Notes: a model not told the origin generated them from the letters alone. 64,000 bases of DNA from an uncultured Fibrobacteraceae bacterium (GCA_964476155.1 CAYYYS010000013.1:910-64909); one strand, 5' to 3'; counted from the first letter of the stretch, positions 40,973-53,493 are shown. Program-made: numbers and translations.

Positions 40973-41554
40973 ATGTCCCATCATCACGATCGCACACGTA
41001 CGCTCTTGTCGACCGTCGTCTTGACCCTGTTTCTGACCGCCGGTGCCGTGGCCGCCCAGGGCGAATACAGCGTTCTGGGCCTGTCGGCCGCTCCCGACGC
41101 CTATGTCGACGAGATCGATGTTGCCTACGGCCAGGACTTCCAACTCTACGTGATCATCGCCGGCCCCGGCGCGGTCGAGCCACTGACCCGGGACTTCGTC
41201 TCGGTCAATTGGGCCGTCCTGCAGGCCTGTTGCGGCGGGTCGCCCGCCACCCTGATCGAGTCCGATCTGCACACGGACCAGCTCGTTCATGAGGGCGATC
41301 CGATCTATGGCGTCCATACCAGCGCGCCGACCTGTGTCGATGCGGAGATCATCACCGTCGCCACGCTCACCTTCACCTGGCTCTACGAACCCGTCACCGG
41401 ACCATTCCTGCTGGGCGCGGCGTCCATGTCGGCCGCGGAGTTCTGTGGGGGAGAGACGGAGTTCCTGTCCGGCTGTTCGGTGCGGGTCGCGCCCCTGGGG
41501 TATACCCCGGCGGCGGACCACACCTGGGGCGAGGTCAAGTCCCTCTTCAGGTAG
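40973..41554 (+). CDS. Hypothetical secreted protein with C-terminal TWGEVKSLFR motif
   Basis: Signal peptide (LLSTVVLTLFLTAGAVAA); four Cys-containing segments; terminal motif shared with 53839 and 55153 proteins. Confidence 0.75.
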   Translation: MSHHHDRTRTLLSTVVLTLFLTAGAVAAQGEYSVLGLSAAPDAYVDEIDVAYGQDFQLYVIIAGPGAVEPLTRDFVSVNWAVLQACCGGSPATLIESDLHTDQLVHEGDPIYGVHTSAPTCVDAEIITVATLTFTWLYEPVTGPFLLGAASMSAAEFCGGETEFLSGCSVRVAPLGYTPAADHTWGEVKSLFR

Positions 41555-41779: not shown

Positions 41780-41986
41780 TTGAGCAAGAAAAAAGAGAAC
41801 GAAACCCCTCCGGTGATCGAGATCAATGCCGAGTGGTGTAAGGGATGTGGCATCTGTATCGAGTACTGTCCCACGGACGTACTGGCCCTCGAAAGCGGTA
41901 TCGCGGTGGTGGTCAAACTCGACGAATGCACCCGCTGTCAACTCTGTGACTACCGCTGCCCCGATTATGCAATCACCGTAACGTGA
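41780..41986 (+). CDS. korD: 2x[4Fe-4S] ferredoxin, delta subunit of 2-oxoacid:ferredoxin oxidoreductase
   Basis: CKGCGICIEYCP and CTRCQLCDYRCP; AGGAGG before TTG. Confidence 0.88.
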   Translation: MSKKKENETPPVIEINAEWCKGCGICIEYCPTDVLALESGIAVVVKLDECTRCQLCDYRCPDYAITVT

Positions 41987-42007: not shown

Positions 42008-43159
42008 ATGCCTGTTACCAAGAGAAATGACAGAGTCCGGGTCATGACCGGCAACGAAGCCTGCGCCGAAGCGGCGCTCGCGTCTGGACTCAAGTTCTTT
42101 GGGGGTTATCCCATCACACCGTCCTCGGAGATCGCCGAAGAGCTGTCGACCAAGCTCCCGGCCGCCGGCGGCAAGTTCATCCAGATGGAGGATGAGATCG
42201 CCGCGATGGGTACGGTGATCGGTGCATCCCTGGCCGGCGCGAAATCCATGACCGCCACCAGTGGCCCCGGTTTTTCGCTGAAGCAGGAAAACATCGGTTA
42301 TGCCTGCCTCACCGAGGTCCCGTGCGTCATCGTCAACGTGATGCGCGGCGGGCCGAGCACCGGGTTGCCGACGATGCCCCAGCAGTCGGACGTGATGCAG
42401 GCGCGCTGGGGAACCCACGGTGATCATCCGATCATCGTCCTGGTGCCGCAGAGCGTGGCCGAGACCGTCGACTTGACGATCCGCGCCTTTCACCTCACCG
42501 AGAAGTACCGGATCCCGGTCATCCTGCTCATGGACGAGACCGTGGGACACATCAGCGAAAAGATCACGCTGCCGGACCCGGCCGAGGTCGATATCTACGA
42601 ACGGAAGCAACCGACCGTGTCGCCGGACAAGTACCTCCCGTACGAACACACCGAGAGCGACATCCCCGAGATGGCGTCCTTCGGTACCGGGTACCGTTTC
42701 CACGTGACCGGCCTCTGTCACGACCAGACGGGTTTTCCGACCAACGACCCGGTCGAGATCGAGAAGCAGATGCTGCGGATCAACCGCAAGCTGGAGCGGT
42801 ATCGGGACGATATCATCGAGGTGGAAACCGACGGCGATGCGGATGCCGAAATCGGTATCTTCGCCTACGGCTCCACCGCTCGGTCCGCCAAGCGCGCCAT
42901 GTTGATGGCCCAGGAGAAGGGCATCAAGGTCAGCTACCTGCGGCCCCGCACCATGTGGCCGTTCCCCGATCGCGAGGTGCTCGCCATGGGCGAGCAGGTC
43001 GGCAAGATCATCGTGCCGGAAATGAATCTCGGCCAGGTCGCCCACGAGGTCGAATGGGCGGTCGGTGGACAGGCCGAAGTGATCAAGGTGAACAAGATCA
43101 ACGGTGAACCGATCAGTCCGCTCGAAATCCTGGCGGCCATCGAAAAGGCGGTGAAGTGA
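42008..43159 (+). CDS. korA: 2-oxoacid:ferredoxin oxidoreductase alpha subunit
   Basis: GYPITPSSEI, QMEDEIAA, TATSGPG, RGGPSTGLPT; substrate (2-oxoglutarate) inferred. Confidence 0.9.
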   Translation: MPVTKRNDRVRVMTGNEACAEAALASGLKFFGGYPITPSSEIAEELSTKLPAAGGKFIQMEDEIAAMGTVIGASLAGAKSMTATSGPGFSLKQENIGYACLTEVPCVIVNVMRGGPSTGLPTMPQQSDVMQARWGTHGDHPIIVLVPQSVAETVDLTIRAFHLTEKYRIPVILLMDETVGHISEKITLPDPAEVDIYERKQPTVSPDKYLPYEHTESDIPEMASFGTGYRFHVTGLCHDQTGFPTNDPVEIEKQMLRINRKLERYRDDIIEVETDGDADAEIGIFAYGSTARSAKRAMLMAQEKGIKVSYLRPRTMWPFPDREVLAMGEQVGKIIVPEMNLGQVAHEVEWAVGGQAEVIKVNKINGEPISPLEILAAIEKAVK

Positions 43160-43980
43160 TGGAAACCTTCGACTACACCACCTATCTGAGGGACAAGAAG
43201 TTTCCCCTGATCTGGTGTGCGGGTTGTGGACACGGCATCGTCATGAAGTCGATCCTGCGCGCCGTCGATCGTGTGGGCTGGGACCAGGACAAGATGGTCA
43301 TGGTTTCGGGCATCGGCTGCTCCAGTCGCATGCCGGGCTACGTGGACTTCAACACGTTGCACACGACCCATGGCCGGGCGTTGCCTTTCGCCACCGGCGT
43401 GAAGATGGCCAACCCCGACCTGCACGTCATCGTGATCACCGGTGACGGCGACGCCACCGCCATCGGCGGCAACCACTACATCCACGCGGCGCGGCGAAAC
43501 ATCGACCTCACGGTCGTTCTGCTGAACAATACGATCTACGGCATGACCGGTGGTCAGGTCAGCCCCACGACCCCGCGGGGCAAGAAGGCCAGCACCGCGT
43601 CGTTCGGCAACGTCGAGCCGACGTTCAACATCAGCGGCCTGGCCCAGGCGGCCGGCGCGTCCTTCGTGGCCCGCGGCACCGCCTACGGCGCCGTGCAGCT
43701 CTCGAAGTACATCGAAAAGGCCCTGCTCAAGAAGGGGCTCTCGGTGGTCGAGGCCATGTCGCCCTGTCCCACCGTTTACGGCCGGCGCAACAAGTACAAG
43801 AATCCCGTCGAGATGTATGACGAACTGAAGGAGGATTCGGTGCCGGTCAAGAAGGCGGCCAAGATGTCGGAAGAGGAGCTTGACGGCAAGATCGTCACCG
43901 GTATCCTTACCGATGTCGATAAGCCCGAGTACACTGCGGAATACGCCAAGCTCATCGAAAAGCTGGGAGGGTCGTCATGA
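43159..43980 (+). CDS. korB: 2-oxoacid:ferredoxin oxidoreductase beta subunit
   Basis: WCAGCG, SGIGCS, HGRA, TPP motif GDGD...NNTIYGMTGGQ. Confidence 0.92.
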   Translation: METFDYTTYLRDKKFPLIWCAGCGHGIVMKSILRAVDRVGWDQDKMVMVSGIGCSSRMPGYVDFNTLHTTHGRALPFATGVKMANPDLHVIVITGDGDATAIGGNHYIHAARRNIDLTVVLLNNTIYGMTGGQVSPTTPRGKKASTASFGNVEPTFNISGLAQAAGASFVARGTAYGAVQLSKYIEKALLKKGLSVVEAMSPCPTVYGRRNKYKNPVEMYDELKEDSVPVKKAAKMSEEELDGKIVTGILTDVDKPEYTAEYAKLIEKLGGSS

Positions 43981-44525
43981 GTTTCCGCTATGAGGTCCGT
44001 TTGAGCGGCGAAGGTGGCCAGGGATTGGTGCTCGCCGGCAAGGTGCTCGCCGAGGCGGCGGCCATCTACGACGACATGAACGCCACCCAGAGCCAGTCCT
44101 ACGGGCCCGAGGCCCGTGGCGGCGCCAGCCGTTCCGAGGTCATCATCTCCGACGGTGACATCGACTATCCCAAGGCCGTGAACATCGACCTGTTGCTGGC
44201 CATGACCCAGGAGTCGGCCAACAAGTACCACGGCGATCTCAAGGACGGCGCCATCATGCTGGTCGACAGCCACGCCTGTCCCGACATCCCCGAGGGCAAT
44301 TTCAAGGTCTACAGCGCGCCGATCATCGAGATCGCCCGCGAGAAGGTGGGCAAGGTGCTGGTGGCGAACATCGTGGCGCTCGGTTTCATCACCGAGTTGG
44401 CCAAGGTGGTCACGCAGGAGGCGGTCGAGGCGGCTGTCCTGGCGCGTGTTCCCAAGGGTACCGAGGAGCTCAACATGACAGCCTTCAAGGCCGGGGTCGA
44501 GGCGGCCAAAGACCTGGTGAGCTAG
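43977..44525 (+). CDS. korC: 2-oxoacid:ferredoxin oxidoreductase gamma subunit
   Basis: GEGGQG, SYGPEARGG, NIVALG. Confidence 0.92.
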   Translation: MSFRYEVRLSGEGGQGLVLAGKVLAEAAAIYDDMNATQSQSYGPEARGGASRSEVIISDGDIDYPKAVNIDLLLAMTQESANKYHGDLKDGAIMLVDSHACPDIPEGNFKVYSAPIIEIAREKVGKVLVANIVALGFITELAKVVTQEAVEAAVLARVPKGTEELNMTAFKAGVEAAKDLVS

Positions 44526-44531
44526 CTCTTT

Positions 44532-47498
44532 CTAAAGTTCGAGTTCGACGAGCAGGTCGCGGACGATGTCCGCGACCTGTGCCGTTCTGGTGATGATGTC
44601 GTCGAGGAGGACCTGCCGTCCCGCTTCGTCGTCCGGGCCGTCGCTGTAGCCCTGCACCCAGGCCAGATGTCCCAGTTCTTCGGGCAGGATATCGTCCTCG
44701 GCGGCCACGGTCAGGTGGTAGATGTCGCGGATGTGCTTGAGGTGGCGGAAGGCGGAGAACATTACTTCCAGATCTTCGGCGCGATGTTCAAACCGAGCGA
44801 CCAGGTGTTGTTGCAGATCCCAGGAGACCGGCAGCCAGAATCCCGCGCGGGCCATCAGGATCATCAGCATCAGTTCGATGTCCCGCAGGCCGCCCTTGGT
44901 CTCCTTGATGTTGAGCGTCGAGATGATGCCCTGATCCACCGCCTGATGGCGCGAGCGGATCTCCTTGGCCATCCGGGACGTGAAGTACGCCTCGCGGTCG
45001 AGGATATAGGGTCGGATGATCTGTCGGTAGAGTTCGGCTTCGTTCTTCTTGCTGCCGACGATCTTGCGTGCGCCCAGGAGCTGTGACATGTCGATGAAGG
45101 CCACGTCGTCCGGGTTTTCGAAGAGTCGTTTCAGCTCCGAGAAGGTCGTGACGTAGTGGCCGAACCGCTCCGCGAACCGGTACTGGGGCATGGTTCCGCG
45201 CTTGATGATCTCGCTGTTCATCCGCGTCATGATCCGGCCGCAATATTCGCGGATCTGCGGATCGTCCGAGTTGAGCAGGATGACCAGGTCATAGTCGTCG
45301 TCGAAGGCCAGTTTGCGGCCGTGGCCGCCGGCGGCGTAGATGGCCAGCAGGTCGCGGGTGCGGATACTCTCGGACGAGTGCGTGCCCACCTCCTGCTTGC
45401 AGACGTCGAATAGCGATTCCAGGTAGTTGTCCACGAATTCGGTGAATTCGGCGTTGACCTGCTCGATCGGCAATCCCTCCCGGCATTCCAAACCAATGCG
45501 CAGAAACTCCAGGTCGTAATAGCTGCCCAGTTCCTTTCGCTTGCGGTCGAAGGTGGGGAAGGTCTCGAAGCGGGCAAAGAAACCCTTGGCGATCACCTCG
45601 AGCATTTCGGTTTTACGCAGATGACGGATGCATTTGGGGTAGCGGTCGACCGTACGCTGCAGGAACCGCCGGAAGTAATGGCTGGATGTGCAGTGAAGAC
45701 GACAGAAATGCAACAGGTCCTTGCGCAGTGATTCCACTTCCGCGTCCCACACGTCGTTCTCGAAGATCAGCGCGAAGCGGTCGCGGTCCGTCTCGCTCAG
45801 TCCGGTCAGGAAGTCGTTCAGCAGTTTGGGATAGTGATCGAACAGGGCGGTTACGCGCGGGATCACGTCGGTCGATTCTCTCAGGCGGTCCAGCAGTGCG
45901 GCGCTGAGTTCGCGGTGCAGGATGCGGGCGTTCTCGTGGCTGCGTTGTCCGTGCAGCAGGATCAGCAGCTGCATGACCACCTTGATCGTCGAATCGCTCC
46001 ACTTGGCGTAGCGTCGTACGAGCTTGCCGCGGTCCCTGTCGTTGAGCGACATGAAATCGTCCACGAATTCGATGACCAGCTCGCGGTTCTTGCGCATGGG
46101 ACTCATGACGTCGTCCCAGAACCGGGTGCCGCGGAAGAAGTGCAGGGTCTGGACGAACTCCACGGCGATGTTGTTCGTCTTTTCTTCGCCTTCGGTGTGC
46201 GCGTCGCGTCCACCGAGGTATTTCGCGAAAACGCTGATGCGCTCCAGATGGTCGCGCAGATCGTCCATCAGGATCCGGCCGGCCTTGCGTACGGTCTGTA
46301 CGTGCTCGTGGTAGTGGATGAGCAGGTGCTCGTAGCCGCAGACGACCCCCACGTTCCGGTAACCCATCAGCGCAGCCACCGCTTCGAGCTGGGCGCGTGA
46401 TCCTTTTTCCTGGAGGAGGATCTTTTCTTCCTGAACCTCCAAAAGCTGGTAGAGGAAGCGGAAGACCTCGATGAAGGAGAGGGCGTCCTCGAGGTCCCCG
46501 TAGGTCTGCATGTGTTCGGGATCCCGGGCCATGAGCTCTTCGAGGATGCGCCAGGCGTTGACCTCCTTGATACCCAGGACGGTCTTGCGGGCGGACAGCA
46601 GGCCCTTGATGATGCGCAACGCGTCCCGCTTGGGGTGAACGCTGTCGTCCGGCATCTTGCGCAGCAGCAGGTCGTTGATCTCGCCCATCATGCCGCGCAG
46701 GTATCCCTCGTGGTAACGGTTGTCCTGGCCGGGGTCGTAGTAGTAGCGGTCGGTCACGCGGGAGGTGAAGTCGGCGAAGAGCGATCTGTTGCCGATGATG
46801 GGCCGCGCGCCGAGCAACTCGGTGATGATGATGAAGTCACGGATCGCGCCGTCGAGCAGTGTCCCGTACTCGTCTATCGAGGCGGAGTAGCTCTTTTCGC
46901 CCACGTGTTCGGAGAGGTGCAGGTGCAGGGGGATGGCCCGGCGCATCATCTCCCGCTGCAACGACGAGATGGCGTGGTTCAGGGCTTCACGGTGATCGAC
47001 GTTGCTGTCGATGATGCCGAGGTCGAGATCGTCCTGGTCGGCTCGCGTGCCCACGCCGCAGATCACGAAGTCGAGCTGATTCTCCTGCGCTAGGAAGAGT
47101 TCGAGCAACTTGCCCATGTAGGCGCTGGTCAGCCGCCGCAGGTCGCGTCCCGTCAGCAGCATGAAGTCGCGGTAGACCTCGTAGCGGTCGGCCTCCGACG
47201 CCAGACCCAAACGCAGGACATCCACCGCCCGCGTATTGAGGTTCAGCAGCTGGAAGGCGAAGTAGCAGCCGAGAAAGTCGAGGCGCTCCTTCTCGTCGTG
47301 ACCCATCTCGCAGATCATGTCCATCTCCTGCGCCAGGTCGGGGGCCGAGGCCCAGAAATGGATCTCGTCGATGGCGCCGGATTCCTCCAGGCGTTCGCTG
47401 AGCAGGTCCTTGTGCTTGGCGATGAAGTGGGTGTACTTGCGGTGATGGTTGCCCAGCTTGCCGATGCTTGTCTGGAGGCGGTTGAAGTCGTTCAGCAT
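44532..47498 (-). CDS. 988-aa protein with two pol-beta-superfamily nucleotidyltransferase domains (GlnE/GlnD-like architecture, divergent)
   Basis: NT1 CGVGTRADQDDLDLGII; NT2 AAGGHGRKLAFDDDYDLVIL; LLGARPIIG and LLGARKIVG; NIKETKGGLRDIE. Confidence 0.72.
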   Translation of the reverse strand: MLNDFNRLQTSIGKLGNHHRKYTHFIAKHKDLLSERLEESGAIDEIHFWASAPDLAQEMDMICEMGHDEKERLDFLGCYFAFQLLNLNTRAVDVLRLGLASEADRYEVYRDFMLLTGRDLRRLTSAYMGKLLELFLAQENQLDFVICGVGTRADQDDLDLGIIDSNVDHREALNHAISSLQREMMRRAIPLHLHLSEHVGEKSYSASIDEYGTLLDGAIRDFIIITELLGARPIIGNRSLFADFTSRVTDRYYYDPGQDNRYHEGYLRGMMGEINDLLLRKMPDDSVHPKRDALRIIKGLLSARKTVLGIKEVNAWRILEELMARDPEHMQTYGDLEDALSFIEVFRFLYQLLEVQEEKILLQEKGSRAQLEAVAALMGYRNVGVVCGYEHLLIHYHEHVQTVRKAGRILMDDLRDHLERISVFAKYLGGRDAHTEGEEKTNNIAVEFVQTLHFFRGTRFWDDVMSPMRKNRELVIEFVDDFMSLNDRDRGKLVRRYAKWSDSTIKVVMQLLILLHGQRSHENARILHRELSAALLDRLRESTDVIPRVTALFDHYPKLLNDFLTGLSETDRDRFALIFENDVWDAEVESLRKDLLHFCRLHCTSSHYFRRFLQRTVDRYPKCIRHLRKTEMLEVIAKGFFARFETFPTFDRKRKELGSYYDLEFLRIGLECREGLPIEQVNAEFTEFVDNYLESLFDVCKQEVGTHSSESIRTRDLLAIYAAGGHGRKLAFDDDYDLVILLNSDDPQIREYCGRIMTRMNSEIIKRGTMPQYRFAERFGHYVTTFSELKRLFENPDDVAFIDMSQLLGARKIVGSKKNEAELYRQIIRPYILDREAYFTSRMAKEIRSRHQAVDQGIISTLNIKETKGGLRDIELMLMILMARAGFWLPVSWDLQQHLVARFEHRAEDLEVMFSAFRHLKHIRDIYHLTVAAEDDILPEELGHLAWVQGYSDGPDDEAGRQVLLDDIITRTAQVADIVRDLLVELEL

Positions 47499-47515
47499 GA
47501 CAGGTCCATGTCGCT

Positions 47516-48181
47516 TCAGTCCTCCAGCCCCGACCGGTAGCGTCCGGTGGCGGGGTCCTTGTAGACTTTCACCTGCTTGTACAGCTTGATGCCGCGCCGA
47601 CCGGTGGCGATGTCCAGGAAGAGGCTGTCGAGGCAGCCGGCCAGGTCGTCCATCTGTTCCTTGAGGCTCTCCAGACGCGAATGGAGGGCGGCTTCGTCCA
47701 TGGTGCCGCCCGCGGTGGAGAGTTCCTCGCGGATGTGGTAGAGCTTGAGGGCCAGGACGGTGATGCGGTCCACGATGCTCGCCGGCGATTCCGAATGCAA
47801 TGGTGCGGTCGGACTGGGCAGACCGGCGGTGGACAGGATCTGCATGACCTGGGCGTCGAAGATCTCGATGGTCTTCACGCGGCGCGCATTGGAGGCGTCG
47901 ATGGAGCGCTTGACCTCGGCGAGAACTTCGTCGCCGGCCTCGTGGGCGCGACTGCGGTCCTCTTCGTGCCACTGGTAGGTGTTGATCAGCTGGAGCAACT
48001 CGGCCACGCCGGCCCAGCCGACGTGCTCGGGCGACAGCACGCGCAGGCCGTCGTCCCAGCTCGGGATCAGGTGCTCTTTCTCGTGCCAGCTCTCTATGAC
48101 CTGCCAGATGATGGGCAGCAGAACATCCGCGGCGGGCAGTCCCACGGGAAGAATCTTGGCTTCGGGACCATGTGAGGTCAT
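47516..48181 (-). CDS. DUF4254-family helical protein
   Basis: QWHEED, KRSIDASNARR, SESPASIVDRITVLALKLYH, YKQVKVY; AAGGA RBS. Confidence 0.75.
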   Translation of the reverse strand: MTSHGPEAKILPVGLPAADVLLPIIWQVIESWHEKEHLIPSWDDGLRVLSPEHVGWAGVAELLQLINTYQWHEEDRSRAHEAGDEVLAEVKRSIDASNARRVKTIEIFDAQVMQILSTAGLPSPTAPLHSESPASIVDRITVLALKLYHIREELSTAGGTMDEAALHSRLESLKEQMDDLAGCLDSLFLDIATGRRGIKLYKQVKVYKDPATGRYRSGLED

Positions 48182-48274
48182 TATCTGTCCTTATCTTGAG
48201 ATGATGAAACTCGCACAAGACTAGACTAATGAACCGGCCTCGGCAAGCACGACCGGCCACCAGGGAGACCACGG

Positions 48275-49324
48275 ATGATGGACTGTTGCGGACGCGTCGG
48301 GAAGATCGGCGGGAGCCTGGTGGCGGCCATGGTCGTGGTGGCCCTGCTCGGCACGACGCTCGCCGCGGCGGGCACCGCCGCTCCGGTCCCCCTGCATCCC
48401 CTGATCGGCGACACGCTCGACCGTGATGAAGCCGCGCGCTGGGGCCTTTTCCGCGACCTGCCCGACCTGGACCACGCCACTTTCCATATCGAACCGACGG
48501 GTGGTTTTCTGGTCCGTCTGTATCTGGCCGGACCGGACGGCCCCTCCCGGCGCGAGCGCCATGTGCCGCGTTCGGTCTGGGACGCGTGGCGCGAGCGTCT
48601 CGACGCCGGCGAATCGGCCGCCGGCATCGGTGTCCCCCCGACACCCGGCGCGCGGGCGGTCTGGCCCGAGACGCCCCTGCCCGTCGGCCTCACGGCGCCG
48701 CAGCCACTGCCGGCGTCACCCGACACGATCATCCCTCTGTCCGCGGCCGACTGGATCACGCTCGTGGACGTGGGCTACAAGCACAGCACCACCAGTTTCG
48801 GCGACTACTTCACCGATATGCTGCACCTCGGCGTCGCGGTCGGCCGCCCCCTGGGCGACTGGTTCGTGCCGACGTTCGGCTTCACGGCCGCCATCGGCGA
48901 TATGAACGACGATTTCGAAGCCGTAACCGGCAACGGCAAGACGGCCCACTACGCCATCGAGCTGGGCGCCCAGCTCCGGGCCTCCCTGGGCGAACGGGCC
49001 AACGTCTACCTGGGACTGGCCGGCGGCTATTACATCCGCTCCCTGCGCTGGGGCGGCATGATCTATTACAGCGATCTGGGCATCTATGAGTCCGGCACCT
49101 TCGTCCGGGAGCAGTCCGATTGGGGCGGCGCGGCCCGCTTCGGCCTGCAGAAACGCCTGGGCTCGCCCGGCACCCGCCCGCGGCTTCTGGATTTCAGTGT
49201 GCGCTACGAACAGTACCGGGCCGAGGCGTCCCTGCTGGTCGACCCCGAATCGGGGGACACCTTCATGGCCGCGGACACCGACGCCTGGGTGAGCATTTCC
49301 CTGGGTCTCATCGTGGGTATCTAA
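48275..49324 (+). CDS. Hypothetical outer-membrane protein (N-terminal domain, Pro-rich linker, beta-barrel)
   Basis: Signal peptide; alternating strands; VYLGLAGGYY; terminal ISLGLIVGI. Confidence 0.6.
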   Translation: MMDCCGRVGKIGGSLVAAMVVVALLGTTLAAAGTAAPVPLHPLIGDTLDRDEAARWGLFRDLPDLDHATFHIEPTGGFLVRLYLAGPDGPSRRERHVPRSVWDAWRERLDAGESAAGIGVPPTPGARAVWPETPLPVGLTAPQPLPASPDTIIPLSAADWITLVDVGYKHSTTSFGDYFTDMLHLGVAVGRPLGDWFVPTFGFTAAIGDMNDDFEAVTGNGKTAHYAIELGAQLRASLGERANVYLGLAGGYYIRSLRWGGMIYYSDLGIYESGTFVREQSDWGGAARFGLQKRLGSPGTRPRLLDFSVRYEQYRAEASLLVDPESGDTFMAADTDAWVSISLGLIVGI

Positions 49325-49338
49325 CGAAGGATGGACGC

Positions 49339-49983
49339 ATGATCCTGAACGACCTCTCGCGCGGCGACGCCGTAGTGCATCAGCTGCACCTGGGCGGCGA
49401 TCGCAATTTCAGCTACCTCTTCGGTGATCGCGTCAGCGGCGAGGCTGCGGTGGTCGACCCGGGTTTCGAGCCCGACGCATTGGCCGAGGCCGCAAAAACG
49501 GCGGGCCTGACCGTACACCATGTCCTGATCACCCACGGGCATGCCGACCATGTGGGCGGGCTCGATCGGCTGCTCGAGTTGACGGGCGCGAATGTCGCTG
49601 CCGGGGCGATTCGTCTGGGAGAGCGTTCCCTGACCCCGTTGCCCACCCCGGGCCACGCGCCCGACCACACCTGCTGGCTGTTCGAGGGTTTCCTGGCCAC
49701 CGGGGATCTGCTGTTCTGCGGCAAGGTAGGCGGCACCGGCCCGTTTTTCCCCGGCTCGAGCGCGGAAAAGGAGTGGGCGTCACTGCACAAGGTGCTCGAA
49801 CAGCCCGACAAGACCATCGTGCTGCCCGGACACGACTACTACGGCGGCGAGGGGGAGATGCCCCACTCGACCGTCGGATTCGAGCGTCTACACAATCCCT
49901 TCCTGCTCTGCACCGATTTCGACGCCTTTGCCCATCTCAAGGAGAACTGGGCGGCCTACAAGGAAAAGCATGGTATTCGCTGA
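49339..49983 (+). CDS. MBL-fold hydrolase, glyoxalase II-like
   Basis: NFSYL, THGHADH, TPGH, TGDLLF, PGHDY, ERLHNPFL. Confidence 0.88.
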   Translation: MILNDLSRGDAVVHQLHLGGDRNFSYLFGDRVSGEAAVVDPGFEPDALAEAAKTAGLTVHHVLITHGHADHVGGLDRLLELTGANVAAGAIRLGERSLTPLPTPGHAPDHTCWLFEGFLATGDLLFCGKVGGTGPFFPGSSAEKEWASLHKVLEQPDKTIVLPGHDYYGGEGEMPHSTVGFERLHNPFLLCTDFDAFAHLKENWAAYKEKHGIR

Positions 49984-50089
49984 GAATTCCGGCTGGATCG
50001 TGGCCCTAAAAGAGATTATGCTGAGCCGCTCGCGGGATTGCCTGCGGAACACGAAAGTATCGACCCTCTAGAAATCGGGAGTTTAATCC

Positions 50090-51616
50090 ATGCTAGCCAG
50101 CATCACGGATTTGATGCAGTCCTTCGCCGACACCTATAGCCGTGTCACGCCCGACTGGTTGGAGCAGTTCACTCCGGTGGTTCTACTGCTGATCGTGGTG
50201 GCTTTCGTCTTCTATCGCCTGCCAACGGTTGACGTGGGTCACGACAAGGGCTTCAAGCGGCGCCGGATCATGAATTGGCTGCCTCTGGGTCTCACTTACG
50301 CCTTCTTGTATATGGGGCGTTACAACCTGACAGTGAGCAAGTCCGCCTTTGAGAACCTGGCCGGCGGCGGCGGCAGCTCCATGATGGGCAACGATGCCTT
50401 CGGCGTGATCTTCGGCGTGGGCACGATCGTCTACGGTTTTTCCTTCCTGATCAACGGGCCACTGACCGATAGGCTGGGCGGTCGGTTCGCCATTCTCGTC
50501 GGCGCCGCCGGCGCGATTGTCGCCAACCTCCTGATGGGACTGGCTTCGCTTTCGCTTTTGCATGACGGCCCCCTGTCTGGCTTCCTGGTCTCCAACTTCG
50601 TCATTGTCTTCTCAATTCTCTACGCCGCGAACATGTATTTCCAGAGTTTCGGCGCAGTAGCCATCGTCAAGGTAAACTCCTCGTGGTTCCACGTGCGCGA
50701 GCGTGGTGTCTTCGGGGCCATCTTCGGTATCCTGATCTCGCTGGGCATCTACTTCGCCTTCGACCTGGGCGGCATGATCCTCGATAGCATGGGGCTGGCT
50801 TGGGTTTTCCTGATGCCGGCATTGCTGCTGACGCTATTCTGGATCATCGACTACTTCATTGTTTATAACAAACCCAGCGAGGCGGGGCAGGAGGATTTCA
50901 ACACCGCCGATGCCACATCGGGAGATGAGGGACCGCAACTCGGCGCGATCAAGGTCTTCAAGATGATGCTGACCAACCCCATCATCATCACCATCGCCCT
51001 GATCGAGTTCTGCAGCGGCTTCCTGCGTCAGGCGATCATGCAGTGGTTCAAGATCTTCGCCAAGCAGACCGATGCGATGCTCGGCCTCAAGAGCAGCTTC
51101 GTCTACGAGAACTGGGGCCTGATGCTCTGCATCGCCGGCATCCTCGGCGGCGTGTTCGCGGGGACGATCAGCGACCATCTCTTCCAGTCGCGTCGGGGAC
51201 CCGTCGCGGCCTTCCTCTACGGCACTATGCTGATCGGTTCGGTGATGTTGATCTTCTTGTATCAGACCCCATTTGTAGGCTGGCTGGTGCTGATCATGTC
51301 CATGGCCGTGATCGGCGTCCACGGCATGTTGTCGGGGACCGCCAGCATGGACTTCGGCGGCTCCAAGAACACGGGCATCGCCGTGGGCATCATCGACGGC
51401 TTCGTTTATCTCGGCACGGCCGTCATGTCGTTCACCTATGCCATCGTCCTGCCCAAGGAGAAACTCGACGCCGCGGGCGAGATCATCGGCCCGGCCATCG
51501 ATCCCGCCAACTGGAAGGCGTGGCCCATCGCCATGGTCCCCTTGGCGATTCTGGGGCTGGTTCTGGCCACGCGTGTCTGGAACGCCAAGCCGAAAAGCAA
51601 GTCCTCGGCCCACTGA
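50090..51616 (+). CDS. MFS transporter, GlpT/UhpC (organophosphate antiporter)-like
   Basis: Many TM segments; YMGRYN, ERGVFGAI, SDHLFQSRRGP, GIIDGFVYLG. Confidence 0.8.
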   Translation: MLASITDLMQSFADTYSRVTPDWLEQFTPVVLLLIVVAFVFYRLPTVDVGHDKGFKRRRIMNWLPLGLTYAFLYMGRYNLTVSKSAFENLAGGGGSSMMGNDAFGVIFGVGTIVYGFSFLINGPLTDRLGGRFAILVGAAGAIVANLLMGLASLSLLHDGPLSGFLVSNFVIVFSILYAANMYFQSFGAVAIVKVNSSWFHVRERGVFGAIFGILISLGIYFAFDLGGMILDSMGLAWVFLMPALLLTLFWIIDYFIVYNKPSEAGQEDFNTADATSGDEGPQLGAIKVFKMMLTNPIIITIALIEFCSGFLRQAIMQWFKIFAKQTDAMLGLKSSFVYENWGLMLCIAGILGGVFAGTISDHLFQSRRGPVAAFLYGTMLIGSVMLIFLYQTPFVGWLVLIMSMAVIGVHGMLSGTASMDFGGSKNTGIAVGIIDGFVYLGTAVMSFTYAIVLPKEKLDAAGEIIGPAIDPANWKAWPIAMVPLAILGLVLATRVWNAKPKSKSSAH

Positions 51617-51627
51617 GGTAATCGCCC

Positions 51628-53493
51628 ATGAAAGTCTCGTGTCTTCTCCTGCTGGCGCTGACCATTGCGGTCGGCGCCGGCGCCGCTGATACCCGGACCT
51701 TCGTCATCGCGGACGGCGACACCGTCTGGCTGACCGATCCCATCGTCATTCTCGGCTCGCGCGTGCCCGCAGCCCTGCCCGGCCTCATCCGCCCGGTGGC
51801 CATGATCGGCCCCGACGCCGATGTGCCCGTCCGCTCGACGGCGGAACTCCTGGCTCTGCTGCCTGCCGTCGAAGTGAACCAGCGTCAGCAATACGGCACC
51901 CAGGCCGACCTGAGCATCCGCGGTTCCACCTTCGAACAGGTGCAGGTCCTGCTCGACGGTTGGGATGTGGGCGACGCCCAGACCGGTCATCATAATCTCG
52001 ACCTGCCGCTGGGCCTGGCCGACGTGGTGCGGCTGGAGGTCCTGCGCGGCCACGGGTCGGCCCTCTACGGCGCCAACGCTTTCGGCGGCGTGGTGAACGT
52101 GATTCCGCGTACGCCGTCGGACCGGCGTGGCGGCGCGATGGCGGTGGGCGGCGGCGATTTCGCCACCCGTTTCGCCCGTCTCCGGTTTGAGAGCGGTGCC
52201 GGCGCGGTCATGGGGCTCGACGGCAAGGCCTGGGTCTCGGGCGAGTGGTTCCGCACCGACGGCGATCGGGACGGGACCGATGTGGAGAACGGCTCTATAT
52301 CCCTACGCGCCACGGGTCGCACTGGCTGGGGCGAAATCGAGACCTTGTCGGGCTACGCTCGCCGCGAATTCGGCGCTTTGGATTTCTACGCGCCCTACCC
52401 GTCCTTCGAGAAGACGGAAACCGCCTTCACGGGCTTCAAGGTGAGGGCCGATCTCTCCGATGCGGTGGTCCTGGAGCAGCGCCTGGGCGGCCGCCGCCAT
52501 CGAGATCGCTTCACGCTCTTCCGCGATGATCCCGACATCTACTTCAACGACCACGTCACGCGTCGCACGACCGCCGAAACCCGTTTGCTGATCGAGGCCG
52601 GTCATGGTCTGGCGGTCGCTGTGGGTGTGGACGGCATGTACGAGGATATCCGCAGCGATGGTATTCGCAGCGGCGTGGCCGGACCGGCCCTGGGTGACCA
52701 CGAGCGTCGCCGGGCGTCCGGGTCGCTGGAATTCACGGGACGTCACGCGCCTCTGCGCTGGAGTCTGGGGGCGCGCCTGGACAGCTGGTCGGTCGCCCGG
52801 CCCCGCCTGTCGCGCTCGGCCGCCGCGAGTCTCGACCTGGGGGATGGCGTGTCGTTAAGGGCTTCGACCGGCACTGTATTCCGCGTGCCGACCTTCACGG
52901 AGCTCTATTACGAGGATCCGGCCAACGTGGGCGATCCGACCCTGTCGCCGGAGTCCGGCTGGTCGCGGGACGCCGGCGCCGAGATTCGACGCGGCCCCTG
53001 GACGGTGGTCTGGGAAATCTTCGCGCGTTACGAGACCGATCTGATCGACTGGGCGCGTCCGCGCGACGCCACCGACGATCCTTGGCGGGTCATGAATATC
53101 ACCACGGGGGAGGTGCGCGGCACGACCCTGTCCTACCGTCTCGACACGCCCCGCGGAGATGCCTTCTACCTGCACCACACCTATCTGGAAAAGACCCGCA
53201 GCCTGCCCGACCATCACGTCGCCAAATATGATTTTCTGGCGCCACGCCATCTGGTCGCCACTGGTGTCACCGTGAACTGTTGCCGTTTCCTGCGTTTGAC
53301 ACCCCAGGTGCGGCTGCGAGATCGTGCGGACGGCGGCGGACACGGAGTCGCTGATCTACGTGTTTCTCTTGCGCACAATATCTGGCGGCTGGATGTGGAT
53401 GCCACGAATCTGCTGGACCTGGATTATTTTGAGATTCCGGGTGTTTTCATGCCCGGGCGATTGGTTACCGCAACGATGAAATATCTCTTTTAA
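51628..53493 (+). CDS. TonB-dependent receptor
   Basis: Plug SIRGSTFEQVQVLLDG, LEVLRGHGSALYGANAFGGVVNVI; FRVPTFTELYY; NLLDLDY; terminal Phe. Confidence 0.9.
   Translation: MKVSCLLLLALTIAVGAGAADTRTFVIADGDTVWLTDPIVILGSRVPAALPGLIRPVAMIGPDADVPVRSTAELLALLPAVEVNQRQQYGTQADLSIRGSTFEQVQVLLDGWDVGDAQTGHHNLDLPLGLADVVRLEVLRGHGSALYGANAFGGVVNVIPRTPSDRRGGAMAVGGGDFATRFARLRFESGAGAVMGLDGKAWVSGEWFRTDGDRDGTDVENGSISLRATGRTGWGEIETLSGYARREFGALDFYAPYPSFEKTETAFTGFKVRADLSDAVVLEQRLGGRRHRDRFTLFRDDPDIYFNDHVTRRTTAETRLLIEAGHGLAVAVGVDGMYEDIRSDGIRSGVAGPALGDHERRRASGSLEFTGRHAPLRWSLGARLDSWSVARPRLSRSAAASLDLGDGVSLRASTGTVFRVPTFTELYYEDPANVGDPTLSPESGWSRDAGAEIRRGPWTVVWEIFARYETDLIDWARPRDATDDPWRVMNITTGEVRGTTLSYRLDTPRGDAFYLHHTYLEKTRSLPDHHVAKYDFLAPRHLVATGVTVNCCRFLRLTPQVRLRDRADGGGHGVADLRVSLAHNIWRLDVDATNLLDLDYFEIPGVFMPGRLVTATMKYLF

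What the first reader, a model, noticed from the sequence alone, without database searches (positions are those of the whole stretch)
44532..48181. DUF4254 + tandem nucleotidyltransferase operon: possible new reversible nucleotidylation system
Seen: DUF4254 gene 17 bp upstream of a 988-aa protein with two NT domains, each followed by an LLGAR motif and a helical region. Known: GlnE has two NT domains (GKLGGxELxxxSDxD); GlnD has one (GGYGRxELxPxSDxD) plus HD and ACT domains. Here the motifs are GVGTRADQDDLD and GGHGRKLAFDDDYD, both shorter and lacking the conserved E and S, though the DxD metal ligands remain. No glnA or PII gene is in the window, and the unit converges on korDABC. Inference: a writer/eraser enzyme with a different substrate, with DUF4254 as target, adaptor or nucleotide-handling partner. 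Any 2-oxoglutarate link is speculative.
Basis: partly seen in the sequence, partly recalled or inferred. Interest (0 to 1): 0.72.

Follow-up and report, generated by a model that had tools for sequence, protein, structure and literature searches.

The report
GlnE-like double nucleotidyltransferase tied to KOR
The 988-residue protein is a real, uncharacterised enzyme with two GlnE/GlnD-type nucleotidyltransferase modules, but its conserved genomic partner across many uncultured phyla is the 2-oxoacid:ferredoxin oxidoreductase operon korDABC, not the DUF4254 gene beside it here.

Summary
Observation confirmed. On the minus strand a 221-aa DUF4254 gene (47516-48181) lies 17 nt upstream of a 988-aa gene (44532-47498). 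That protein has two homologous nucleotidyltransferase (NT)+helical modules, both with invariant DxD carboxylates.

Interpretation partly supported. The protein is not GlnE or GlnD. It scores far below both curated cut-offs, has no HD or ACT domain, and 0 of 45 family members match the GlnE NT model. It belongs to a compact family of about 1000-aa proteins in FCB-type candidate phyla, all named hypothetical. Its only significant fold matches are GlnE and DrrA.

DUF4254 is adjacent in 2 of 77 usable species-level loci, both close relatives. DUF4254 orthologues elsewhere keep the same flanks without the NT gene, so a korDABC/NT block was inserted next to it.

- korAB..C lies directly upstream on the same strand in 48 of 77 loci (median gap 65 nt).
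- A lone korC-like gamma gene does so in 5.
- kor is convergent in 5 (the window's clade).
- sdhA/fumarase is adjacent in 7.

Best reading, inferred and untested: a GlnE-style writer/eraser acting at the KOR/2-oxoglutarate node.

The parts
44532..47498 (-). NT988: 988-aa protein with two tandem GlnE/GlnD-type NT + HEPN-like helical modules. Member of a compact uncharacterised family.
   Evidence: Translation. 226 homologues, nearly all 980-1010 aa with 100% coverage, all named hypothetical. 161 50%-identity representatives at E<=1e-30. AF2 model pLDDT 89.2. Foldseek significant hits are only GlnE 1v4a and 3k7d and DrrA 6yx5.
46254..47303 (-). N-terminal module (residues 66-415): divergent NT + helical domain. 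D156/D157/D159, E197, K290 and R295 are conserved.
   Evidence: hhalign against the C-module E 4.7e-25. No detectable match to E. coli GlnE or GlnD. Column frequencies.
47022..47033 (-). DDLD (residues 156-159): the metal-binding DxD of NT module 1, invariant in 45 of 45 family members.
45561..46253 (-). Central all-helical region (residues 416-646), with no recognisable family. A possible regulatory or target-binding region, by position analogous to the GlnE linker/R region.
   Evidence: AF2 secondary structure. hhalign of this region against GlnE and GlnD finds nothing.
44538..45560 (-). C-terminal module (residues 647-987): canonical GlnD/GlnE-like NT + PF08335 helical domain. Motifs GGHGR, DDYD, NIKETKGGLRDIE.
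   Evidence: Pfam PF08335 E 4e-13, DUF294 weak. NCBIfam GlnD N-terminus 55.8 bits. hhalign to GlnE AR module (E 6e-9), GlnE AT module (E 9e-7) and GlnD (E 6e-9), with DxD aligned to GlnE D173/D175 and D701/D703.
45288..45299 (-). DDYD (residues 734-737): the metal-binding DxD of NT module 2, invariant in 45 of 45.
47516..48181 (-). DUF4254 gene (221 aa). Neighbour by lineage-specific rearrangement, not part of the conserved system. Probably co-transcribed with NT988 in this lineage only.
   Evidence: Pfam 122 bits. Adjacent in only L006 and L043. Same flanks without NT988 or kor in L085-L087. AF2 all-alpha bundle pLDDT 92.8, with no PDB fold match.
41780..41986 (+). korD (delta, 2x[4Fe-4S] ferredoxin subunit).
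   Evidence: ORF. NCBIfam best hit OGOR_delta, below cut-off.
42008..43159 (+). korA (alpha subunit of the four-subunit 2-oxoacid:ferredoxin oxidoreductase).
   Evidence: Pfam POR_N + PFOR_II. NCBIfam PRK08659 560 bits against cut-off 411.
43156..43980 (+). korB (beta, TPP-binding subunit).
   Evidence: Pfam TPP_enzyme_C. NCBIfam best hit 2-oxoglutarate ferredoxin oxidoreductase beta, 332 bits against cut-off 364.
43977..44525 (+). korC (gamma subunit): the gene most tightly linked to NT988 homologues. It lies directly upstream on the same strand in 53 of 77 loci, and alone with NT988 in 5 of those. Here it is convergent, with stop codons 6 nt apart.
   Evidence: Pfam POR. Neighbourhood statistics. 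Lone gamma in L084 confirmed by Pfam.
40973..41554 (+). Left edge of the insertion site: conserved 193-aa ORF of unknown function. In L087 it lies directly against DUF4254.
   Evidence: tblastn synteny. No Pfam or NCBIfam hit.
48275..49324 (+). Right-hand resident neighbour of DUF4254: unknown 349-aa gene heading a conserved unknown-MBL-MFS-TonB receptor array, transcribed divergently from DUF4254.

Best explanation
The 988-aa protein (called NT988 here) belongs to a discrete, uncharacterised family within the GlnE/GlnD/DUF294 branch of polymerase-beta-fold nucleotidyltransferases.

Shown. It consists of two homologous NT + HEPN-like helical modules joined by a helical middle region. Both modules keep the three acidic metal ligands and a Lys/Arg pair. 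The family's conserved genomic partner is the four-subunit 2-oxoacid:ferredoxin oxidoreductase operon korDABC, above all its gamma subunit. DUF4254 sits beside NT988 only in the window's shallow clade, where a 'korDABC -> <- NT988' block was inserted between resident genes.

Inferred. By analogy with GlnE (opposed adenylyl-transfer and adenylyl-removal modules) and with the other characterised relatives GlnD and DrrA, all of which nucleotidylate a protein tyrosine, NT988 most likely attaches and removes a nucleotidyl group on a protein. The canonical C-module would be the transferase and the divergent N-module the remover. The target would be at the 2-oxoglutarate/TCA-ferredoxin node. KOR itself, through its gamma subunit, is the most parsimonious candidate. 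This would tune flux at the 2-oxoglutarate branch point, much as AceK controls isocitrate dehydrogenase. The target, the nucleotide and the signal are all untested.
For: Architecture
- Internal duplication: residues 66-415 against 647-987, E 4.7e-25.
- AF2 model pLDDT 89.2. The only significant PDB fold matches are GlnE N-domain (E 2e-8), GlnE C-domain (6e-7) and DrrA (8e-5).
- The C-module DxD aligns with GlnE D173/D175 and D701/D703 and with the GlnD motif.
- Conservation over 45 members: D156/D157/D159 and D734/D735/D737 in 45 of 45; E197 in 43; D/E777 in 44; K290, R295, K865 and R872 in 45.

Distinct family
- GlnD TIGR01693 scores 55.8 bits against a cut-off of 519; GlnE PRK14109 scores 21.6 against 625.
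- Of 45 members, 45 match PF08335, 7 match DUF294 and 0 match the GlnE NT model; none has HD, ACT or CBS.
- 161 representatives at E<=1e-30, essentially all about 1000 aa or fragments.

KOR link, over 77 usable GTDB-species loci
- 48 have korAB..C -> NT988 on the same strand.
- 5 have a lone korC-like gene -> NT988.
- 5 are convergent (the window's clade).
- 7 have divergent sdhA plus fumarase.
- The korC-to-NT988 gap has a median of 65 nt and is under 150 nt in 38 of 54.
- The phyla labelled include Gemmatimonadota, KSB1, Zixibacteria, Marinimicrobia, WOR-3, Stahlbacteria, Calditrichota, Cloacimonadota and Krumholzibacteriota.

DUF4254 not a partner
- An HMM search finds it near NT988 only in L006 and L043.
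- L085-L087 show the uninterrupted ancestral synteny.
Against: - No biochemical data exist for any family member.
- Conserved gene order can persist without direct interaction. Twelve of 77 loci show no kor or sdh directly next to the gene (though L044, L054 and L082 have kor within 10 kb), and in the window's own clade the gene is not co-transcribed with kor.
- The only candidate acceptor residue I looked at is weak. KorC Tyr42 is Tyr in 96% of linked gammas and Phe in 7 of 8 unlinked paralogues, but the lone gamma of L084 has Phe there, and the difference may simply reflect paralogue divergence.
- The N-module lacks the conserved Arg of the (L)LGAR motif in most members, so it may be regulatory rather than catalytic.
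- E. coli glnE and glnD are also not linked to glnA or glnB, so absence of such linkage does not exclude a nitrogen-regulatory target.
Confidence: 0.5

Rival explanations
1. NT988 is the functional equivalent of GlnE or GlnD in these phyla. It would reversibly adenylylate glutamine synthetase or uridylylate a PII protein. Its position beside kor would reflect only the shared metabolite 2-oxoglutarate (carbon/nitrogen balance).
For: The two-module architecture and about 1000-aa size mirror GlnE. The C-module's best sequence matches are GlnD N-terminal models. From general knowledge, PII senses 2-oxoglutarate. E. coli glnE and glnD are themselves unlinked to glnA and glnB.
Against: - It fails the GlnE and GlnD equivalog cut-offs by about 10- to 30-fold in bits.
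- No HD or ACT domains, and 0 of 45 members match the GlnE NT model.
- The N-module is closer to its own C-module than to any GlnE module, which argues for an independent duplication.
- tblastn with E. coli GlnA and GlnB finds nothing in the window or in 1.37 Mb around 87 homologous loci, while kor is adjacent in 58 of 77. A GSIII-type enzyme might escape this tblastn.
Confidence: 0.2
2. One reading: DUF4254 and NT988 form a dedicated two-gene nucleotidylation system, with DUF4254 as target, adaptor or nucleotide-handling partner.
For: The genes share a strand with a 17-nt gap and no predicted terminator between them.
Against: - DUF4254 is adjacent in 2 of 77 species-level loci and in none outside the window's close relatives. 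It is absent in L005, L007 and L008 of the same clade.
- DUF4254 orthologues keep the same flanks (S8-radA-ispD-methyltransferase on one side, unknown-MBL-MFS-TonB on the other) with no NT988.
- A published survey links DUF4254 to RfaF heptosyltransferase genes in Flavobacteria (PMC9425974).
- The DUF4254 model is a helical bundle with no informative fold match.
Confidence: 0.04
3. NT988 acts on a non-protein substrate (a small molecule, cofactor or nucleotide), or has a structural or chaperone-like role for KOR rather than covalent regulation. Alternatively, the kor adjacency is inherited synteny with no direct functional meaning.
For: No target has been identified. In some lineages a third small NT-fold gene (c16, DUF6036-like) sits between korC and NT988. 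ndk and folE2, both nucleotide-metabolism genes, often lie downstream. The N-module motifs are degenerate.
Against: Every characterised structural relative (GlnE, GlnD, DrrA) modifies a protein tyrosine (general knowledge; fold matches). Adjacency is conserved across phyla at 37-47% protein identity with short gaps, and a lone gamma subunit is retained next to NT988 in 5 loci.
Confidence: 0.2
4. The pair is a toxin-antitoxin or anti-phage defence module of the MNT-HEPN kind.
For: The helical domain PF08335 belongs to the HEPN/KNTase_C clan (PMC3710099).
Against: - No PADLOC or PHROGs match.
- That paper lists the GlnD/E-type HEPN as lacking the catalytic Rx4-6H motif.
- The gene is conserved in housekeeping contexts (kor, sdh, ndk, fab genes) across phyla.
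- Base composition is not unusual.
Confidence: 0.02

Closest known systems
GlnE (glutamine synthetase adenylyltransferase / adenylyl-removing enzyme)
   Same: About 950-1000 aa. Two tandem pol-beta NT + helical (PF08335-type) modules produced by internal duplication, with the DxD carboxylates aligned. It is the best fold match (1v4a E 2e-8, 3k7d E 6e-7). It is the model for writer and eraser activities in one polypeptide.
   Different: - 21.6 bits against an equivalog cut-off of 625, and no member matches the GlnE NT Pfam model.
- The motifs are shorter (GVGTRADQDDLD, GGHGRKLAFDDDYD) and lack the conserved Glu and Ser.
- The N-module resembles its own C-module rather than the GlnE AR module, which suggests a separate duplication.
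- The genomic link is to korDABC/TCA genes, not to nitrogen genes.
GlnD (PII uridylyltransferase / uridylyl-removing enzyme)
   Same: The C-module (NT + PF08335) is the closest sequence match to the GlnD N-terminal UTase region, including GGxGR, DxD and (N/D)IKxxxGGLRDI.
   Different: No HD domain and no ACT domains. A second NT module takes the place of the HD-type removing domain. 55.8 bits against a cut-off of 519.
DrrA/SidM AMPylation domain (Legionella)
   Same: GlnE-like NT fold; third-best structural match (6yx5_B, E 8e-5, TMt 0.62). It is a protein-tyrosine AMPylase, which shows that this fold is used on targets other than GS and PII.
   Different: DrrA is a secreted effector with a single NT domain plus GEF and lipid-binding domains. 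It has no tandem module and no metabolic operon context.
DUF294 proteins (cNMP-binding + CBS + DUF294 NT + DUF294_C)
   Same: The NT core of the C-module weakly matches PF03445 (E 0.003 in the window protein; 7 of 45 members at E<=0.01).
   Different: No cNMP or CBS sensor domains, and two NT modules instead of one. DUF294 proteins are themselves uncharacterised.
AceK and PEP-synthase/PPDK regulatory proteins (functional analogy only, from general knowledge)
   Same: Bifunctional enzymes that both add and remove a covalent group on a central-metabolism enzyme, and that are encoded next to the pathway they control (aceBAK; ppsR-ppsA).
   Different: They use phosphorylation rather than nucleotidylation and have unrelated folds. 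The analogy concerns logic and gene placement, not homology.

Membership tests
GlnE (GS adenylyltransferase) | Two tandem NT + helical modules in one polypeptide of about 950 aa. | tested here: met
   Internal repeat E 4.7e-25. AF2 model. Foldseek hits to both GlnE halves.
GlnE (GS adenylyltransferase) | Scores above the curated GlnE models (NCBIfam PRK14109 cut-off 625; Pfam GlnE NT domain PF03710). | tested here: not met
   21.6 bits. PF03710 is not matched by the window protein at E<=0.1 or by any of 45 family members at E<=0.01.
GlnE (GS adenylyltransferase) | The N-module is orthologous to the AR domain and the C-module to the AT domain. | tested here: not met
   The N-half has no detectable match to E. 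coli GlnE. The C-half matches the AR and AT modules about equally (E 6e-9 and 9e-7). N and C match each other far better. Caveat: the templates were single sequences.
GlnE (GS adenylyltransferase) | Modifies glutamine synthetase Tyr397 and is regulated by PII and glutamine. | not testable with these tools
   Indirect only: no glnA or glnB within the window or within 1.37 Mb around the homologues.
GlnD (PII uridylyltransferase) | N-terminal NT + PF08335 domain. | tested here: met
   The C-module matches PF08335 at E 4e-13 and the GlnD N-terminal models at E about 1e-15. The motifs align.
GlnD (PII uridylyltransferase) | HD phosphohydrolase domain plus two ACT domains; score above TIGR01693 (cut-off 519.4). 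| tested here: not met
   No HD or ACT hit in 45 of 45 members. 55.8 bits.
DUF294 nucleotidyltransferase proteins | PF03445 above its gathering score, with cNMP/CBS sensor domains and DUF294_C. | tested here: not met
   17.9 bits against a cut-off of 21. No cNMP, CBS or DUF294_C hit. Seven of 45 members match PF03445 at E<=0.01.
DUF4254 (PF14063) | Match above the Pfam gathering score. | tested here: met
   122.4 bits against 27, covering profile positions 6-143 of 144.
Conserved DUF4254-NT988 gene pair (the proposed new system) | Adjacency conserved across the NT988 family. | tested here: not met
   Only L006 and L043 among 82 loci (77 usable), by tblastn and by HMM. DUF4254 orthologues keep their flanks without NT988.
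Four-subunit 2-oxoacid:ferredoxin oxidoreductase (KOR type) | Delta, alpha, beta and gamma subunit genes in order, with the alpha subunit above its curated cut-off. | tested here: met
   korD 41780-41986, then korA, korB, korC. KorA scores 560 against PRK08659 (cut-off 411). Pfam finds POR_N, TPP_enzyme_C and POR.
Four-subunit 2-oxoacid:ferredoxin oxidoreductase (KOR type) | Specificity for 2-oxoglutarate. | tested here: inconclusive
   The best KorB and KorD hits are 2-oxoglutarate models, but below cut-off (332 against 364; 47.9 against 125). KorA and KorC best-match generic 2-oxoacid models.
MNT-HEPN toxin-antitoxin or defence modules | Match to defence-system models; HEPN Rx4-6H catalytic motif. 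| tested here: not met
   No PADLOC or PHROGs hit. The GlnD/E-type HEPN is listed as lacking the motif (PMC3710099).

The most novel reading that the evidence does not exclude
NT988 is a bifunctional nucleotidyl-transferase/removing enzyme whose substrate is 2-oxoglutarate:ferredoxin oxidoreductase itself, probably the gamma subunit. If so, a large part of the FCB-type candidate phyla would control a ferredoxin-dependent TCA-cycle step by reversible AMPylation or UMPylation. I found no report of this kind of regulation for any 2-oxoacid:ferredoxin oxidoreductase or TCA-cycle enzyme in the searched literature.
Probability: 0.25. Interest if true: 0.82.

Novelty: new variant of a known kind. Interest (0 to 1): 0.6.

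Why it matters
Reversible nucleotidylation of metabolic enzymes is known in essentially one classical case, GlnE acting on glutamine synthetase with GlnD acting on PII. Here a second GlnE-style two-module enzyme family appears. It seems to have arisen by its own duplication, and it is held next to the kor operon across about ten mostly uncultured phyla.

If it controls KOR or another protein at the 2-oxoglutarate node, it would reveal a new layer of post-translational control of carbon, redox and ferredoxin flux in organisms that are abundant in sediments, oceans and anaerobic digesters. It would also extend the known substrates of GlnE-fold AMPylases.

The hypothesis is directly testable by heterologous co-expression. 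All family members are currently annotated as hypothetical, and I found no paper linking such an enzyme to KOR.

Tried and rejected
- Sequence searches of PDB with the single proteins found nothing useful. Only the family profile reached GlnE, at E 2e-4.
- A Foldseek search with the confident DUF4254 model gave only generic helical bundles (best E 0.17), so no function can be read from its fold.
- I looked for a candidate acceptor tyrosine in KorC. Y42, in SYGPEARGG, is Tyr in linked gammas and Phe in 7 of 8 unlinked paralogues. The lone gamma of L084 also has Phe, and paralogue divergence explains the pattern equally well, so I kept this as a weak lead only.
- The promoter and terminator scan of 44300-48500 gave no promoter-like site and no minus-strand terminator. 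That is uninformative for these phyla.
- PADLOC and PHROGs gave no hits, so I rejected the defence/TA reading.
- There are no tRNA or Rfam elements in the window.
- Literature searches for DUF4254, PF08335, kor + GlnE, and AMPylation + ferredoxin oxidoreductase returned two relevant papers. One links DUF4254 to RfaF; the other classifies PF08335 as HEPN-clan. Nothing covered this family.

Full report
**1. What is in the sequence**

The finding's coordinates match two minus-strand genes.
- 47516-48181 encodes a 221-aa protein that matches Pfam DUF4254 (122 bits, cut-off 27).
- After a 17-nt spacer, 44532-47498 encodes a 988-aa protein.

The mechanical ORF list shows a 1370-aa ORF in this frame. 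That is a high-GC upstream extension. More than 100 homologues of 980-1010 aa align from residue 1, which supports the ATG at 47498. The quoted motifs and both LLGAR motifs are present. The gene ends 6 nt from the stop codon of korC, on the opposite strand. korD (41780-41986), korA, korB and korC are confirmed by Pfam and NCBIfam, and KorA exceeds the curated cut-off of the 2-oxoacid:acceptor oxidoreductase alpha model. The window contains no GlnA or PII homologue.

**2. Anatomy of the 988-aa protein ("NT988")**

Pfam recognises only the C-terminal part: PF08335 GlnD_UR_UTase at 842-976, and a sub-threshold DUF294 NT match at 673-768. The family profile shows an internal duplication. Residues 66-415 align with 647-987 at 99.6% probability, E 4.7e-25, over 320 columns, and the motifs are in register:

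| N-module | C-module |
|---|---|
| GVGTR..DQDDLD | GGHGR..FDDDYD |
| SEHVG | AERFG |
| LLGARPIIG | LLGARKIVG |
| PK..D.LR | NIKETKGGLRD |

An AlphaFold2 model built on 45 homologues is confident (pLDDT 89.2, pTM 0.78). Its only significant matches in the PDB are the two halves of E. coli GlnE (1v4a E 2e-8; 3k7d E 6e-7) and the GlnE-like AMPylation domain of Legionella DrrA (E 8e-5). Everything else is generic helical repeats.

Conservation across the 45 aligned members:
- Both DxD triplets, D156/D157/D159 and D734/D735/D737, are invariant.
- A third acidic residue is nearly invariant in each module (E197 in 43 of 45; D/E777 in 44 of 45).
- A Lys/Arg pair is invariant in each module (K290/R295; K865/R872).
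- The Arg of the N-module LLGAR is not conserved (7 of 45), whereas the C-module Arg is invariant.

So the C-module is canonical. The N-module is divergent but keeps its metal ligands.

**3. Is it GlnE or GlnD?**

No.
- The best curated-model scores are 55.8 bits for GlnD TIGR01693 (cut-off 519) and 21.6 bits for GlnE PRK14109 (cut-off 625).
- There are no HD, ACT, CBS or cNMP domains. All 45 family members match PF08335, 7 match DUF294, and none matches the GlnE NT model.
- In profile-sequence comparisons the C-module is equidistant from the GlnE AR module (E 6e-9), the GlnE AT module (E 9e-7) and the GlnD N-terminus (E 6e-9). Its DxD aligns to GlnE D173/D175 and D701/D703.
- The N-module matches none of these, only its own C-module.

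This pattern favours a duplication independent of the one in GlnE. The E. coli templates were single sequences, so a proper module tree is still needed.

A search of 1.84 billion 50%-identity representatives found 161 at E<=1e-30. Essentially all are about 960-1016 aa or fragments of such proteins. The family is compact, has a fixed architecture, and is annotated as hypothetical throughout. Source labels are Latescibacteria, KSB1, Zixibacteria, Marinimicrobia, Gemmatimonadota, WOR-3, Stahlbacteria, Calditrichota, Cloacimonadota, Krumholzibacteriota and unclassified MAGs.

**4. Is DUF4254 a conserved partner?**

No. I fetched 80 species-level loci carrying a homologue, with up to 10 kb on each side, plus four through exact-protein look-ups.
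- tblastn and an HMM built from 41 DUF4254 proteins find DUF4254 near NT988 only in L006 and L043. Both are close relatives (about 70% NT988 identity).
- It is absent in L005, L007 and L008 of the same clade, and everywhere else.
- Approached from the other side, DUF4254 orthologues at 50-69% identity (L085, L086, L087) lie in the same synteny as the window's flanks. Subtilase, radA, ispD, methyltransferase and (in L087) a 183-aa ORF run toward DUF4254. An unknown gene, MBL, MFS and a TonB receptor diverge from it. There are no kor genes and no NT988.

In the window, L006 and L043, the block "korDABC -> <- NT988" sits precisely between the 193-aa ORF (40973-41554) and DUF4254. The adjacency is therefore the product of an insertion or rearrangement in a shallow lineage. 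NT988 may well be read through from the DUF4254 promoter there (17-nt gap, no terminator found), but that is promoter capture, not a conserved operon.

A published survey links DUF4254 to RfaF heptosyltransferase genes in Flavobacteria (PMC9425974). Its AlphaFold2 model is a confident all-alpha bundle (pLDDT 92.8) with no informative PDB neighbour. Its function remains unknown.

**5. What is conserved next to NT988?**

All-against-all clustering of ORFs from 82 loci gave four recurrent real families beside NT988 itself: KorC in 61 loci, KorB in 59, KorA in 55 and KorD in 45. They are almost always upstream on the same strand.

| Arrangement | Loci (of 77 with usable flanks) |
|---|---|
| korAB..C -> NT988, same strand | 48 |
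| lone korC-like gamma gene -> NT988, no same-strand korAB nearby | 5 |
| NT988 -> <- korCBAD, convergent (the window's clade) | 5 |
| sdhA/frdA divergent, with fumarase nearby | 7 |
| other | 12 |

- The lone-gamma group is L060, L068, L073, L083 and L084. In L084 Pfam confirms that the neighbour is only a POR-gamma protein.
- Several of the 12 "other" loci still have kor within 10 kb.
- The korC-stop to NT988-start gap has a median of 65 nt and is under 150 nt in 38 of 54 cases.
- Nine of the larger gaps (about 750 nt) contain an extra small gene, c16. Eight of its 11 members match Pfam DUF6036, "nucleotidyltransferase of unknown function".
- Looser recurrent neighbours are folE2, ndk, an acetate-kinase/ROK-like ATPase, and Hdr/Flx-like iron-sulfur proteins.
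- tblastn with E. coli GlnA and GlnB finds nothing in 1.37 Mb of these neighbourhoods.

The comparative signal therefore points to the 2-oxoacid:ferredoxin oxidoreductase, especially its gamma subunit, and more broadly to the TCA/ferredoxin node. It does not point to nitrogen-assimilation genes or to DUF4254.

**6. Most likely mechanism**

Shown:
- two GlnE-fold NT modules, each with an intact set of catalytic carboxylates;
- a family distinct from GlnE and GlnD;
- deep, short-gap linkage to korDABC.

Inferred: all characterised proteins with this fold (GlnE, GlnD, DrrA) transfer AMP or UMP to a protein tyrosine, and GlnE uses its two modules for transfer and phosphorolytic removal. I therefore expect NT988 to be a bifunctional protein nucleotidyl-transferase/removing enzyme, with the canonical C-module as writer and the divergent N-module as eraser. 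Its target would be at the KOR/2-oxoglutarate node. KOR itself is the simplest candidate, given the lone gamma-NT988 pairs.

In logic and gene placement this resembles AceK in aceBAK or the PEP-synthase regulatory protein next to ppsA (general knowledge). The nucleotide, the acceptor residue and the controlling signal are unknown.

My estimates are about 0.65 that the function concerns KOR/TCA and about 0.25-0.3 that KOR is the covalent target. The chief rival is a GlnE/GlnD analogue acting on GS or PII, at about 0.2. It cannot be excluded, because glnE and glnD are unlinked to their targets in E. coli as well.

**7. Comparison with the known, and novelty**

The fold and the two-module writer/eraser design are those of GlnE. 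Family membership fails for GlnE, GlnD and DUF294 on tested defining features (section 3). No PADLOC or PHROGs hit supports a defence or toxin-antitoxin reading. The PF08335 helical domain is classed as a HEPN-clan domain without the catalytic motif (PMC3710099). I found no paper describing this family, a kor-linked GlnE-like gene, or nucleotidylation of any 2-oxoacid:ferredoxin oxidoreductase. That search covers only the held library.

I class this as a new variant of a known kind: an uncharacterised GlnE-style enzyme family with a new, conserved metabolic context.

**8. Verdict**

The proposed DUF4254 partnership is refuted by synteny. Interest is moderate to high (0.6): a testable, apparently unreported candidate regulator of a central ferredoxin-dependent enzyme, widespread in uncultured phyla, but with no biochemical evidence yet.

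Noticed in passing
L026:9215-9970, L045:9276-10007, L052:9273-10007, L056:7724-8458, L058:7605-8339, L062/L063:9270-10004, L021:9239-9991, L044:7878-8648, L047:1517-2260, L072:271-1005: A 244-256-aa gene (c16) sits between korC and the NT988 homologue in 11 loci (WOR-3, Stahlbacteria, Cloacimonadota, one Zixibacteria, one KSB1). It carries an IIGAxSLL...WDVDLLF motif, and 8 of 11 members match Pfam DUF6036, 'nucleotidyltransferase of unknown function' (best E 3.8e-6). It would be a third NT-fold protein in the same operon. It is not present in the window.
   Followed up: partly
L060:5094-5639, L068:9395-9931, L073:9305-9889, L083:9323-9883, L084:9360-9971: In five loci a lone korC-like gamma-subunit gene lies directly upstream of the NT988 homologue, with no same-strand korAB. 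In four of them a second, more distant OFOR cluster with its own gamma lies nearby. This suggests the gamma subunit is the specific partner of NT988.
   Followed up: partly
L004, L049, L055, L066, L071, L077, L081 (upstream of the NT988 homologue): In seven loci without kor, the NT988 homologue is transcribed divergently from sdhA/frdA (succinate dehydrogenase or fumarate reductase), with fumarase nearby. This is another TCA-cycle context.
   Followed up: partly
window 48275-53493; also L085, L087, L006, L043: DUF4254 is consistently transcribed divergently from a conserved array: an unknown 340-366-aa protein (no Pfam or NCBIfam hit), a metallo-beta-lactamase-fold protein, an MFS transporter and a TonB-dependent receptor. 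This could be the real functional context of this DUF4254 lineage. There is no RfaF-type heptosyltransferase here, unlike the link reported for Flavobacteria.
   Followed up: partly
window 47516-48181: DUF4254 folds with high confidence (pLDDT 92.8) into a bundle of long helices. It has about 37 invariant, mostly polar residues (for example W71, E74, D75, K91, D95, N98, R100, R101, E131, D138, R139, H149) but no significant PDB structural neighbour. That conservation pattern suggests an enzyme or ligand-binding site of an undescribed type.
   Followed up: partly
L017, L020, L024, L027-L030, L034-L036, L041, L046 (downstream of the NT988 homologue): In KSB1-like loci the NT988 homologue is followed on the same strand by folE2 (GTP cyclohydrolase IB), ndk and an acetate-kinase/ROK-like ATPase. 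In the Gemmatimonadota genome (L001/L015) it is followed by ndk and the yceD-rpmF-plsX-fab gene array.
   Followed up: no
L015:18-6950, L018:16962-22945, L052:18748-22501, L054:2475-9544, L073:1264-5738, L082:1883-6367, L083:1609-8919: Hdr/Flx-like iron-sulfur genes (a CCG-domain HdrD-like protein, and a FlpD/MvhD + 4Fe-4S protein) recur beside the kor/NT988 region in several phyla. This hints at a ferredoxin-linked electron-transfer module in the wider neighbourhood.
   Followed up: no
window 44532-48644 (- strand): The longest-ORF rule yields a 1370-aa ORF that runs upstream through the DUF4254 gene in another frame. This is an artefact of high GC content; the true start is the ATG at 47498. 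Many long antisense shadow ORFs also overlap kor and NT988 in all loci.
   Followed up: yes
window 40973-41554: This 193-aa ORF has a signal-peptide-like N-terminus and no family match. It is conserved in L006, L043 and L087 and marks the left edge of the kor/NT988 insertion.
   Followed up: no
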